Shown: positions 30,931 to 35,774 of the stretch, piece after piece
Layout of the letters: every line of letters starts with the position of its first letter
Numbering within the stretch: position 1 is the stretch's first letter
From: Octopus vulgaris
Taxonomy: Eukaryota
Assembly: GCA_951406725.2 (NCBI GenBank)
Contig: OX597824.1
Coordinates: 42,036,001 to 42,100,000 of the forward strand
DNA length: 64,000 nucleotides
Direction of reading: 5' to 3'
Program-made: the position numbers and the translations under genes
The notes under the pieces: generated by a model
Seen by the model: only the letters and a program-made list of their open reading frames with translations
Databases searched by the model: none
What the model was told of the DNA's origin: nothing

Positions 30931-31440
30931 TAAATTATATAAATATTAAGAATAAATACTATTTATCGGTGTGTTTGTGGTTGTAATGAAATATCAGCAA
31001 AGTGGTCTGCCAACTGACCAAGTTGTCGTTGAGAGGAAGATGTTTCGGACCGTAGGAGAAATGATATTTTGATTAATTGCCTGAAGTCCAGTCAAGACGG
31101 ATAATAAAATAAAGAGCCGATAGGTTAAATTAACAGTTAGATTGTGTCTATCTGCGCATGAAGCGAGGAAAATTCTCACATTTGAAAGGTCATTTGATAA
31201 GTTGATTGTTACTCAAAATATAATTGCATAACTTTGTGTGTTATATGAAATAAATGGCGTTCGTTCACAGAAAATTTCGTAACAATGATTTTACTTTTCT
31301 TTTTCTCAATTAAAATTTTTGTTGTTCATTTTCTAAAGATTATAACTTACAGAATAATAATAATAATAATAATAATAATAATAATAATAATAATAATAAT
31401 AATAATAATAATAATAATAATAATAATAATAATAATAATA

Positions 31441-31814
31441 GCTGACGATATGTGCATCTCTGATCACGAGCAGAAGTAGTGGGGAGCATCATAGCCATGT
31501 GTTGAGAGGGATTGTTGGGGTTTGAATAATTCACCTCTGGAAACATGGGTGGTTCTTTCAACATCCTTAAACAACCCTTATTCAGGGAACCTTTTGAGCG
31601 GGATGGGCTACTCAACCTGAAGAAAATTCTAACTGGGCCCCACCTGCAAGGTCATGTGCTGTTTATCTTGATATGAGATCACCATGTCGCGCACATATGG
31701 TTGTGATGCATGTGCCTGGTGTACCTTTATCAGACGGGTAGTCATGATGGGTATATTGGGCTTCGTATATTTTACCCCAGTGTCACTTTGATGGCATGCA
31801 CTGCTCTCTCACTC
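31441..31814 (+). mobile_element. (AAT)n-embedded non-coding element, copy 1 (truncated)
   Basis: Flanked by (AAT)n on both sides; ends gcatgcactgctctctcactc-(AAT)n. Confidence 0.85.
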
Positions 31815-32090
31815 AATAATAATAATAATAGTAATAGTAATAATAATAATAATAATAATAATAATAATAATAATAATAATAATAATAATAATAATAATAA
31901 TAATAATAATAATAATAATAATAATAATAATAATAATAATAATAATAATAATAATAATAATAATAATAATAATAATAATAATAATAATAATAATAATAAT
32001 AATAATAATAATAATAATAATAATATGATTATTATTATTATTATTATTATTATTATTATTATTATTATTATTATTATTATTATTGTTATT

Positions 32091-32292
32091 CGACCAGAAG
32101 AAAATTCTAACTGGGCCTCACCTGCAAGATCATGCGCTGTTTATATTGATATGAGATCACCATGTCGCGCACATATGATTGTGATGCATGTGCTTGGTGT
32201 ACCCTTATCAGACGAGTAGTCATGATGGGTATACTGGGCTTCGTATATTTTACCCCAGTGTCACTTTGATGGCATGCACTGCTCTCTCACTC
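32091..32292 (+). mobile_element. (AAT)n-embedded element, copy 2 (more truncated)
   Basis: Same terminal ~200 bp and the same end. Confidence 0.85.
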
Positions 32293-32535
32293 AATAATGA
32301 TGATGATGATGATGATAATAATAATAATAATAATAATAATAATAATAATAATAATAATAATAATAATAATAATAATAATAATGATAATAATAATAATAAT
32401 AATAATAATAATAATAATAATAATAATTATAATAATAATAATAATAATAATAATAATAATAATAATAATAATAATAATAATAATAATAATAATAATAATA
32501 ATAATAATAATAATAGTAATAATAATAATAATAAT

Positions 32536-33080
32536 GCGGGAACAATGTAGTACCATGGCTTCTGATCTTAACTGATTGGAAGTGTTAGCATGTATATTCT
32601 TTTGTCCTGGTTTAAAGGATGGGCTATACAACAACTATTCTGCTCAATACTACAGATCTGCTTGTCAGTGGCTTGACCTTATCCAGTTGAGCTTGTCCCT
32701 TAGTGGCTGACGATATGAGCATCTCTGATCTCGAGCAGAAGCAGTCGGGGAGCATCATAGCCATGTGTCGAGAGGAATTTTTTATGGTTTGGATAATTCA
32801 TATTCGGAAACATGGGTGTTTTGTTCAACATCCTTAAACAACCTTTATTCAGGGACCTTTTTGAGCAGGATGGGCTACTCAACCTGAAGAAAATTCTAAC
32901 TGGACCCCACCTGCAAGGTCATGCGCTGTTTATCTTGATATGAGATCACCGTCTCGCGTACATACGGTTGTGATGTATATGTCTGGTGTACCTTATCAGA
33001 CGAGTGGTCATGATGTGTTTATTGGGTTTCGTATATTTTACCCCAGTGTTACTTTGATGGCATGCACTACTCTCTCACTC
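32536..33080 (+). mobile_element. (AAT)n-embedded element, copy 3 (near full length)
   Basis: Extends to about the same start as the 55218-55727 copy and has the same end. Confidence 0.85.
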
Positions 33081-35774
33081 AATAATAATAATAATAATAA
33101 TAATAATAATAATAATAATAATAATAATAATAAAAAGAACGAGAAGAAGAAGAAGAAGATGATGATGATGATGATGATGATGATGATGATGATGATGATG
33201 TTGATGATGATGATGATGATGACAATGATGATGATGATGACGACGACGATTACGATGATGATGACAATGACGATGAAGATAAAGAAGAAGGGAAGGAAGA
33301 AAAGGCATGATTAAAAAGCTAGACCATTAGAATTACGATGGACTACCTCCAGGTGAAATAGCCAGAGTGCTGTTTCAATTGCAGACGGTAGACAAGAGCA
33401 CCATTTTGTTTTTATCTCAACAGGGCATCCCCTTTGATTTTAGGGAGAATAAAATTTACTTAGAGATTTGAAAAGCCATAACACAACAGAAAAAGTTACG
33501 ACCTTGACAATTAAAAACAATTACAATAGCAACGACAACAAAATTACGAACCGTACTAACAACATCATTGACTATTTTAAGGATGACTAATTGTCTGGTT
33601 GGTATGTTGTTATTGAAATTATTGCTTGTGCGAGAAAAAAGACAATGAGACAATGAACAGACAGGCAGACAGATTAGTGAAATCGAGAGACAATTTGAGT
33701 GTTGTTTGCGTGAGTGGAGTGGAGTGGAGTGGAGTAGAGTACCGAGTAGAGAGATATAGAGTAAGTGTATGAATGAATGACGGATGACAGATAGACAACA
33801 AGCTTAGTGGTAGGGTAAGTTTTTTTTTTAAAAAAGAGCAAAAAAAAAAAGAAAATATAAACAAAACTAAAACTATTTTTTGTTTTTAAAATAGGAAAAG
33901 AAAATAATGAAGGAAAAGAGAAAACAAAATAAAAACAGACTTTAAAAAAATAAAAAATAAAATAAAAGAAGGAAAATTATTTATATGTTGACAAGTTTGT
34001 TGAAACAATTCAATTGGCCGAAACGGCAATCGAATGGTGAGGGGAAAAGGATACAGAACCGTATGGGCTTGTGCGTGAATGTATGTATGTATGTATGTAT
34101 GTATGTATGTATTTATGTATGTATTTATGCATGCATGTATGTATGTATGTATGTATGTATGTATGTATGTATGTATGTATGTATGTATGTATGTATGTAT
34201 GTATGCATGTATGCATGTATGTATGTATATATGTATGTATGTATCTATGTATGCATCTATGTATGGATGGATGGTTGGATAGGTGAATGGATGGATTGAT
34301 GGCTGTGCTTAATTGTATGTGTGTGTGTATGTGTATGCTGCACTGCATGTATATATGTGAGTGTGTGTGTGATTGTGCTTGTGTGTGTGTTTTGTGTGTG
34401 TGCTTGTATGTATATATTTGTTCGGGTATATATGCGTATATAATCATAAATGTGTGTGTGTGTGTGTGTGTGTGTGTGTGTGTGTGTGTAAGTTTGTGTT
34501 AAAGCAAAGAAGAAAAAGAAAACTGGAAGGAAAAAGCGTATGTGTTTGTTTAATATGCTGTGTGGATGTGTATGAGCCTGTGATTGAGATCTATGTATGA
34601 GAGAACGAAAGAGAGGGAGGGAGAGAGAAAGAGAGGCAGACAGAGAGATAGAGAAACAGAGAAAGATAGAGTGACAGACAGAGAGACAGACAGATAGACA
34701 AACAGATTGAAAACCAGCCAGACAGACAGGGGAAAATGGAGAATGAGTAAGGGGGAGGTGGAATGGCGGAAAGTGCATGAGAGGTGAAATTAAAAACAAA
34801 AGTGAAACTAAAGAGGATGTACTTCGAGGAGTGGGGAGAGCAACGATTTGAAGATGCGTCACATGGGCAATAATCATTCTCGCATTGGCTGCTGGACTTG
34901 TTTACATGCTACTTTTATGGCTGCATTTGTCTCTTACATATGTTGTTGTTATTGTTGTTGTTGTGTCTGTATGTCTGTATGTGTGTATGTGTGTGTTTTG
35001 TGTGGTGATTGTTATTTTGTAGTGGATGTTGTTGTTGATGTTGCTTTTTCTACGACTGACGTTGACGCCGGTGCCGCTGCTGCACCCGCTGCCGCCGCTG
35101 TTTGATGCTGCTGCTGTTGATACTGCTGCTGCTGCTGCTCCTGCTACTCCTGCTGCTGATTCTGCAGCTGTTGGCACCAGGAATGACGAATAGCAAAGCC
35201 GATAGCTATTGAATACTTTTGAGCGTCGCCTTCACTCGACAGATGGCGCTTTGCTGTTGTTTACGCCTAACTTTGGTCTGGCATGCCCCACCTTTCGACA
35301 TTTTTTCGCTCTACCCCTAACACCTCCTCCTCTGCTACAGGAACTAAAATAAACAAATAAATAAACATATACATAAATAAAATCGCTCCATGGACAATAA
35401 CAGCAATTTCAAGCACAGAACAATTGCAGAAAACTGCAGTACAACTACCACTACCTGTGCTGTGCTCTTAGTATTTGTAACACCAATGCCACCGCCGCCG
35501 ATGCAGCCAGCTCCACCACCACGACAACAACAGCACCAGTAACAGGAGGAACAAAAAATAAAACAACTGGTAATAATTATAAAAATCATAATCGTCATCA
35601 TAAGCCCTTGTGGCCAATAAACGAATTAATAATAATAATAATAATAAAAATGATGATGATGATGATGATGATGATGATGATGATGATGATGATGATGATG
35701 ATGATAATAATAATAATAATAATAATAATAATAATAATAATAATAATTATTATTATTATTATTATTAGGAATTA

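What the first reader, a model, noticed from the sequence alone, without database searches (positions are those of the whole stretch)
31350..33135. Candidate (AAT)n-targeted non-autonomous retroelement stacking in one microsatellite
Seen: three same-orientation copies of a non-coding element (31441-31814, 32091-32292, 32536-33080) separated only by (AAT)n/(ATT)n, and a fourth at 55218-55727 on the minus strand inside (ATT)n. All four share the end ..ctctctcactc-(AAT)n but start at different points. The two longest start at about the same place (~0.55 kb). I see no tRNA A/B boxes, TIR or credible ORF. Copies differ by scattered substitutions, which argues for independent insertions rather than a recent tandem duplication. 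Known: Dong elements (R4 clade, restriction-like endonuclease) insert specifically into TAA repeats, and a fixed 3' end with variable 5' truncation marks target-primed reverse transcription. Inference: this is a site-specific, non-tRNA short retroelement mobilised by a Dong-like partner, and its tails may regenerate its own target, driving (AAT)n expansion. Two R4/Dong-like fragments occur in this window, but the 3' UTR at 52915-52990 does not visibly match this element, so the partner is not identified.
Basis: partly seen in the sequence, partly recalled or inferred. Interest (0 to 1): 0.72.

Follow-up and report, generated by a model that had tools for sequence, protein, structure and literature searches.

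The report
SINE-like passenger of Dong retrotransposons
These are copies of a young, non-coding 555-base jumping element, present over 13,000 times in this genome, that lands almost only inside AAT repeats and faces the repeat's way, and it likely borrows the enzyme of the Dong-type retrotransposons that crowd the same repeats although it shares no detectable sequence with those we compared.

Summary
The element is about 555 bp, non-coding, with no tRNA head. Its 3' 24-mer occurs 13,160 times and its 5' 25-mer 5,537 times; the youngest copies are 0.4-1% from consensus. Of 100 sampled copies, 99 have an AAT tract downstream and 83 upstream (background about 1%); 47 are 5'-truncated. Stacked neighbours face the same way in 18 of 19 pairs. 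The three stacked window copies differ in age (0.5, 5.4, 9.4%), so they inserted separately. At least ten R2-like (Dong-type) families use the same arrays and polarity, one with an intact 1,315-aa frame. They share the element's junction habits; single template-jump fusions join the element to Dong coding sequence and to tRNA-Glu. No sampled Dong family shares its head or tail, and no copy runs into a LINE frame. The partner is inferred, not shown. A 170-bp middle piece is shared with a Chapaev3-like MITE. The scan noted Dong stacks in TAA repeats in other genomes, but not this element. Verdict: new variant of a known kind.

The parts
31353..31440 (+). (AAT)29 target array upstream of copy 1
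31441..31814 (+). copy 1, 5'-truncated (consensus about 180-553), 0.5% from consensus, youngest of the four
31815..32025 (+). (AAT)70: tail of copy 1 and target array
32024..32090 (-). (ATT)22, an inverted AAT tract at the 5' junction of copy 2; seen at 3 of 47 truncated copies in the census
32091..32292 (+). copy 2, 5'-truncated (consensus about 350-553), 5.4% from consensus
32293..32535 (+). (AAT)81 with GAT variants: tail of copy 2 and target array
32536..33080 (+). copy 3, near full length, 9.4% from consensus, oldest; altered first bases and a short deletion in the head
33081..33133 (+). (AAT)17 tail of copy 3, then (AAG)n and (GAT)n
55218..55731 (-). copy 4, full-length start including the four A/T bases before the first G, about 45-bp internal deletion, 2.2% from consensus
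55732..55947 (-). (AAT)n array upstream of copy 4, read on the minus strand
52872..53780 (-). decayed 3' end of an older Dong-type family (endonuclease region, 3' UTR, AAT tail), interrupted by another repeat at about 53076-53480; no similarity to the element
60540..62160 (+). decayed 5' half of a Dong-type element (5' UTR to the start of the reverse transcriptase)

Best explanation
This is a young, abundant, non-coding 555-bp element that sits in (AAT)n/(TAA)n repeats in one fixed orientation, and it is likely a non-autonomous retroposon copied and inserted by the reverse transcriptase and restriction-like endonuclease of Dong-type retrotransposons of the same genome. Shown: fixed 3' end, variable 5' truncation, AAT on both sides, independent insertions piling up in one array, and intact Dong-type frames using the same arrays and polarity. 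Inferred steps: (1) an RNA starting at or near the AT before the first G and ending in (AAU)n is made, probably by RNA polymerase II or read-through, since Pol III boxes are missing; (2) a Dong protein nicks the (TTA)n strand and primes on the RNA, probably helped by pairing of the (AAU)n end with the target; (3) early stops give truncations, and template jumps give the 5' tandem duplications and the fusions; (4) each insertion leaves AAT on both sides, so the array stays a target.
For: Census of 100 distinct copies anchored on the 3' motif, from 96 loci at C1 0.29-18.8 Mb: AAT tract of at least 9 nt downstream in 99 and upstream in 83; by a stricter test 33 of 47 truncated copies have AAT upstream. 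Background is 0.75% (2,000 positions in 60 control loci) and 1.6% (5,000 window positions). Stacked pairs: 18 same orientation, 1 opposite, the latter an inverted 5' piece of one insertion. At least ten Dong-type 3' ends were found in the fetched loci, many in the same arrays and orientation. Dong-A has AAT upstream at 21 of 21 full-length loci; Dong-B at 19 of 20 loci. L316 holds an unbroken 1,315-aa frame with RVT_1 and zf-RVT, aligning to R2 proteins through the endonuclease region. The internal AAT run of one host repeat is found empty (7), filled by the element (4) and filled by Dong-A (1). 5' junction classes are alike: truncated element 42 AAT, 4 ATT, 3 duplicated, 2 fold-back, 14 other of 65; Dong-A 24 AAT, 1 ATT, 12 other of 37; Dong-B 21 AAT, 2 duplicated, 5 other of 28. 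Tandem copies of the extreme 5' end occur in both. One insertion joins Dong-A coding sequence directly to element position 239 (junction unique in the genome). One joins a whole tRNA-Glu to the element's start, as described for R2 template jumps (PMC3414825, section 8 read).
Against: No sequence link to any Dong family sampled. Near-full-length A, B and C gave at most 10-12-nt matches. The best local alignment to the other distinct Dong 3' ends was z=3.0 (top 40 printed; the two higher scores were neighbouring element copies), and an endonuclease profile gave no hit. R2-type proteins are described as needing their own 3' UTR (PMC3414825, abstract). 5' tandem duplications are far rarer in the element (3 of 100) than in full-length Dong-A (15 of 21). 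Each fusion is a single case among about 232 copies or fragments held plus 47 loci picked later, and the Dong fusion could be a nested insertion plus deletion. 17 of 100 copies lack AAT upstream. Transcription was not shown. The name Dong rests on domain order, TAA targeting and literature, not on a tree with named references. The census covers one stretch of one chromosome and favours young copies.
Confidence: 0.8

Rival explanations
1. The element is Dong-mobilised but is an ordinary tail-sharing or internally deleted derivative of a Dong family that was not sampled. This is compatible with the best explanation but removes the tail-free novelty.
For: An annotation of Octopus vulgaris lists 51 Dong-R4 consensus families (PMC13282606 supplement); only about a dozen 3' ends and three 5' regions were seen here. 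The extreme 5' end of family C may be missing. SIDEs of R2 have this build (PMC3414825).
Against: All 30 loci picked by the 5' motif continue into the element body. None of 47 loci picked for unusual upstream sequence has Dong protein similarity between the AAT run and the start. Contig loose ends over the 3' 281 bp showed no distinct alternative upstream sequence among the 6 best-supported rows, with 456 rows not shown. No coding remnant was found.
Confidence: 0.3
2. An APE-type LINE (RTE, CR1 or Tx1) moves the element, and its (AAU)n tail pairs with nicked AAT repeats, giving apparent targeting.
For: RTE elements carry microsatellite tails and spawn many SINEs (PMC5786205 passages; PMC9115989 passages). 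Intact CR1-like and RTE-like frames exist here.
Against: The dominant intact family among the 30 RVT_1 loci examined (24 of 30; 150 were listed) ends in (ATT)n, the opposite sense, and none of the 30 loci matches the element. Junction habits and the fusion point to Dong.
Confidence: 0.1
3. It is a non-autonomous Penelope-like element (a pseudo-LTR piece) with a microsatellite bias.
For: Penelope-like elements favour microsatellites and make inverted 5' pieces (PMC8557442 passages). Fold-back or inverted-tail junctions occur in 6 of 65 truncated copies.
Against: No hammerhead in Rfam scans; the core motifs are not in a convincing arrangement. Duplications are mostly of the 5' end rather than 3' partial tandems, and stacked copies are separated by AAT and differ in age. 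The targets named in the passages read are (TA)n, (CA)n and (C)n.
Confidence: 0.04
4. The window stack arose by local tandem duplication or unequal crossing-over, not by repeated insertion.
For: Local duplications of element plus flank do occur elsewhere (L276).
Against: The window copies differ in 5' end and in age (0.5, 5.4, 9.4%) and share 0-2 derived changes per pair.
Confidence: 0.02

Closest known systems
Dong (Bombyx mori), DongAg, DongBg; restriction-like-endonuclease retrotransposons that target TAA repeats (PMC3812793 and PMC1635306, passages)
   Same: TAA/AAT target, fixed polarity, 5' truncation; autonomous relatives are abundant in the same arrays here
   Different: This element is non-coding, 555 bp, and has no detected sequence in common with the Dong-type families compared
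EhSINE1 of Entamoeba histolytica, moved by EhLINE1 (PMC3716655 and PMC1635306, passages)
   Same: About 550 bp non-coding passenger of a LINE with a restriction-like endonuclease
   Different: EhSINEs are described as not inserting into a specific sequence and show a discernible target duplication; a 3' end shared with EhLINE1 is recalled, not checked
R2 SIDEs of Drosophila (PMC3414825, abstract and section 8)
   Same: Site-specific non-autonomous passenger of an R2-type enzyme; template jumps to tRNA at the 5' end
   Different: SIDEs are the 5' ribozyme plus the 3' end of their LINE and insert in 28S rDNA; no such homology or ribozyme was found here, and this family has over 13,000 dispersed copies
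tRNA-, 7SL- and 5S-headed SINEs, including Ceph-SINEs (PMC5786205, passages)
   Same: Short, non-coding, high-copy, fixed 3' end with a simple-repeat tail, mosaic body
   Different: No small-RNA head or Pol III boxes, no LINE-derived tail detected, and strong target preference

Membership tests
Non-autonomous non-LTR retroposon (TPRT product) | Fixed 3' end with simple-repeat tail and variable 5' truncation | tested here: met
   99 of 100 with AAT tail, 47 of 100 truncated; 13,160 3' versus 5,537 5' motif matches
Non-autonomous non-LTR retroposon (TPRT product) | No coding capacity, no LTR or TIR ends | tested here: met
   Six-frame translation, profile search, end alignments
Non-autonomous non-LTR retroposon (TPRT product) | Target-site duplication | tested here: inconclusive
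   Hidden in the repeat; host-repeat sites show the AAT run split by the insertion
Canonical SINE | tRNA, 7SL, 5S or snRNA head with internal Pol III promoter | tested here: not met
   No A/B box and two T4 runs; ARAGORN 0 of 4 loci; Rfam nothing better than E=4.2
Canonical SINE | 3' tail shared with a partner LINE | tested here: inconclusive
   Not found for about a dozen Dong 3' ends or 30 RVT_1 loci; many families unsampled
SIDE or bipartite derivative of Dong | 5' and 3' ends homologous to one autonomous element | tested here: not met
   Families A, B and C give only 10-12-nt matches; other families' 5' ends were not tested
SIDE or bipartite derivative of Dong | Self-cleaving HDV-like ribozyme at the 5' end | tested here: not met
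   Rfam negative; a loose descriptor gave 6 hits, none at the start; cleavage itself cannot be tested here
Dong/R4-type passenger | Insertion in (TAA)n with the polarity of Dong | tested here: met
Dong/R4-type passenger | Mobilisation by the Dong protein | not testable with these tools
   Indirect only: junction classes, one fusion
Dong/R4 clade (the autonomous partner) | Single frame with RT, CCHC knuckle and C-terminal restriction-like endonuclease | tested here: met
   P0001, 1,315 aa: RVT_1 and zf-RVT; aligns to R2 structures over residues 548-1288
Dong/R4 clade (the autonomous partner) | Placement with named Dong/R4 references in an RT tree | not tested
   The homologue search returned no sequence named Dong or R4 among the 120 listed
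Non-autonomous Penelope-like element | Pseudo-LTR partial tandems, frequent inverted arms, hammerhead | tested here: not met
   Inverted junctions 6 of 142 copies, duplications mostly 5', no hammerhead

The most novel reading that the evidence does not exclude
A free-standing non-coding RNA of unknown origin has hijacked an R2-type, sequence-specific retrotransposon without carrying its 3' UTR. Dong proteins here would recognise cargo mainly by an (AAU)n end that pairs with the target, which makes them relaxed, microsatellite-addressed inserters, and cargo and helpers together keep renewing the AAT arrays they land in.
Probability: 0.35. Interest if true: 0.72.

Novelty: new variant of a known kind. 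Interest (0 to 1): 0.5.

Why it matters
R2-type enzymes are described as recognising their own 3' UTR, and a Repbase-wide survey names only RTE, Ingi, Vingi and R2 as sources of bipartite non-autonomous LINEs and never mentions Dong (PMC5786205, term search and passages). A passenger with over 13,000 copies, precise microsatellite targeting and no shared tail would show another way to parasitise such an enzyme. It gives a direct test: an intact protein (L316) and a 555-nt cargo RNA are in hand. It also helps explain why AAT arrays in this genome are long, clustered and have repeated flanks, which matters for marker design and repeat annotation. The family may already sit unnamed among the unclassified SINE or unknown consensus sequences of published octopus libraries, which could not be searched.

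Tried and rejected
Long 3' UTR of a LINE: rejected; full-length copies start at one position after AAT and 47 loci with unusual upstream sequence show no RT frame. Solo LTR: a TG...CA reading needs one extra A in the left flank and gives no matching duplication (flanks). Rfam, ARAGORN and home-made hammerhead and HDV descriptors: nothing credible. Folding: windows 1-100 and 401-500 reach z=-2.7 among 20 windows tested, modest and unassigned. A terminal hairpin resembling one copy of Dong family I is not the majority sequence of that family, so it was dropped. A motif resembling the Dong C-terminus in one frame was not supported by the profile search. Age polarity within stacks: none (younger copy 5' in 8, 3' in 5, 1 tie). 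AAT tract length does not clearly track copy age. A Penelope protein family search could not be run because the family was not in the library, so Penelope-type frames were not surveyed. Literature: eight answered searches plus one search found no description of this family or of a Dong-dependent SINE, and concerned the MITE; Repbase, Dfam, SINEBase and most subscription papers are outside the library.
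Full report
Observation. The three copies at 31441-33080 and the fourth at 55218-55727 are as described. Against a majority consensus of 24 long copies (553 bp) they differ by 0.5, 5.4, 9.4 and 2.2% and share 0-2 derived changes per pair. They are separate insertions of different age. The genome (G000, 2.8 Gb) is probably an octopus; this is inferred from its repeats and agrees with earlier unchecked notes.

Family. The exact 3' 24-mer occurs 13,160 times and the 5' 25-mer 5,537 times, with 0 for the reversed controls; these are lower bounds. The best long copies are 0.4-1.1% from consensus, so the family moved recently; the oldest seen are 13-15% diverged. Near-identical sequence is held by runs of four coded organisms at shares of 0.94 or more. 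The consensus has no long frame, no Pol III boxes, two T4 runs and a TATA-like word near position 87, and no tRNA or Rfam match.

Target and polarity. I examined 100 distinct copies anchored on the 3' motif, from 96 loci covering the first 100 listed matches (C1, 0.29-18.8 Mb). 53 start within 8 bases of the consensus start and 47 are truncated. An AAT tract of at least 9 nt lies downstream in 99 and upstream in 83; random positions give 0.75-1.6%. By a stricter test 80 have AAT upstream, 3 have ATT and 17 have other sequence. Because truncated copies also have AAT upstream (33 of 47), the repeat was there before insertion. A host repeat with an internal AAT run shows this directly: 7 empty copies, 4 filled by the element and 1 by Dong-A. 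Filled sites carry more simple repeat (median 150 versus 72 nt), but numbers are small and long arrays are also larger targets. Stacked neighbours face the same way in 18 of 19 pairs; the exception is an inverted 5' piece of one insertion.

Candidate helpers. The flanks hold 3' ends of at least ten retrotransposon families with a C-terminal restriction-like endonuclease, many in the same arrays and orientation. Three are young. Family A has 195 exact matches to its 5' motif, inflated by tandem copies, with AAT upstream at 21 of 21 loci. Family B has many nearly identical copies and an unbroken 1,315-aa frame in L316, with RVT_1 and zf-RVT and alignment to R2 structures through the endonuclease. 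Family C has a 1,208-aa frame. TAA targeting is the described habit of Dong (PMC3812793 and PMC1635306, passages); I use the name on that basis, without a tree.

Links to the helpers. 5' junction classes are similar for the element and families A and B (many 'other' rows of A are alignment breaks). Both make tandem copies of their extreme 5' end: 15 of 21 full-length A loci, and element units of about 17, 29, 68 (about 13 times) and 232 bases at loci fetched for that reason, though only 3 of 100 in the unbiased census. In L033 about 390 bases of family-A coding sequence, itself preceded by AAT, join element position 239 directly, with no remainder of A seen downstream; the junction is unique in the genome. 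In L388 a whole tRNA-Glu lies between the AAT array and the element start. Such jumps to tRNA are reported for R2 (PMC3414825, section 8).

What is missing. No sampled family shares the element's head or tail. Matches to near-full-length A, B and C are 10-12 nt; 3' ends of the others reach z=3.0 at best. The 30 best RVT_1 loci, 24 of them one CR1-like family with an (ATT)n tail, do not match. A search for full-length copies with non-A bases upstream gave 1,295 matches; the 100 listed are mostly another phase of the repeat or self-duplications, and 47 examined loci show no RT frame upstream. An Octopus vulgaris annotation lists 51 Dong-R4 families (PMC13282606, supplement searched), so a tail-sharing family may have been missed.

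Mosaic body. Contig loose ends at position 104 led to a second repeat (481 exact motif matches): a 486-bp MITE with inverted ends of about 118 bp and TWA flanks, the signature reported for Chapaev3 (PMC4079192, passages). Element positions 101-270 are 96% identical to its interior, ending at the right inverted repeat. The MITE carries CpG-decayed bases at two diagnostic sites, and element copies older than the sampled MITEs already have the segment. The MITE likely took it from the element, but the direction is inferred. These MITE loci are not in AAT arrays.

Mechanism and rivals. The most likely reading is target-primed reverse transcription by Dong-type proteins (0.8). Whether cargo is recognised through an unsampled family's tail (0.3) or through the (AAU)n end and RNA shape is open. 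APE-type LINEs (0.1), Penelope-like helpers (0.04) and local duplication (0.02) fit worse.

Papers seen. PMC13282606: part 1 of 3 of the text, passages, supplement search. PMC3414825: abstract and section 8. PMC3812793, PMC4079192, PMC3716655, PMC8557442, PMC9115989, PMC5786205, PMC1635306: passages only. Searches found no account of this family. The scan's own index had no look-alike sequence but holds unchecked notes on Dong stacks in TAA repeats in other genomes.

Verdict. Real, well supported as a microsatellite-targeted non-autonomous retroposon; helper inferred; new variant of a known kind; interest 0.5.

Noticed in passing
L159-L188 (for example L187, L173); consensus positions 101-270 of the element: A 486-bp Chapaev3-like MITE (TWA flanks, about 118-bp inverted ends, 7-13% diverged, at least 481 copies) shares 170 bp with the element and likely captured it.
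   Followed up: yes
L002, L049, L095, L097: Single AAT arrays hold stacks of four or more different Dong-type families plus the element, all in one orientation.
   Followed up: partly
L316:955-4902 (+); L314; L338: Intact Dong-type frames of 1,315, 1,295 and 1,208 aa; family B has dozens of nearly identical copies, suggesting very recent activity.
   Followed up: partly
L033:539-760; window about 30800-30925: A second, older non-coding repeat of about 250 bp often has AAT at its ends (50 of 103 5' ends, 43 of 122 3' ends; fewer in control loci); possibly another passenger of the same niche.
   Followed up: partly
L041:815-1540; L320: Fold-back insertions: an inverted copy of an internal piece directly precedes the forward element.
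   Followed up: partly
L273; L404; L396: Long tandem arrays of the element's first 20-87 bases, up to about 13 units, at the 5' junction.
   Followed up: partly
consensus positions about 310-375; window 55218-55727: Recurrent internal deletions with different breakpoints in one region; the sample is biased because the query carried one.
   Followed up: no
L002 minus strand, about 340-576: An unidentified 220-240-bp sequence between AAT runs inside a Dong stack, with no obvious frame; may be a further passenger or a long 3' UTR.
   Followed up: no
L130, L133, L136-L158: A young CR1-like family with many intact 949-aa frames ends in (ATT)n, the opposite sense to Dong.
   Followed up: no
window 1144-2390 (-): Fragments that look like a decayed piggyBac-type transposase by recalled motifs; not tested.
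   Followed up: no
window 25975-26476 and 26694-27182; 21193-21445; 39563-39719: A 500-bp inverted duplication at 95% identity and two palindromic stretches.
   Followed up: no
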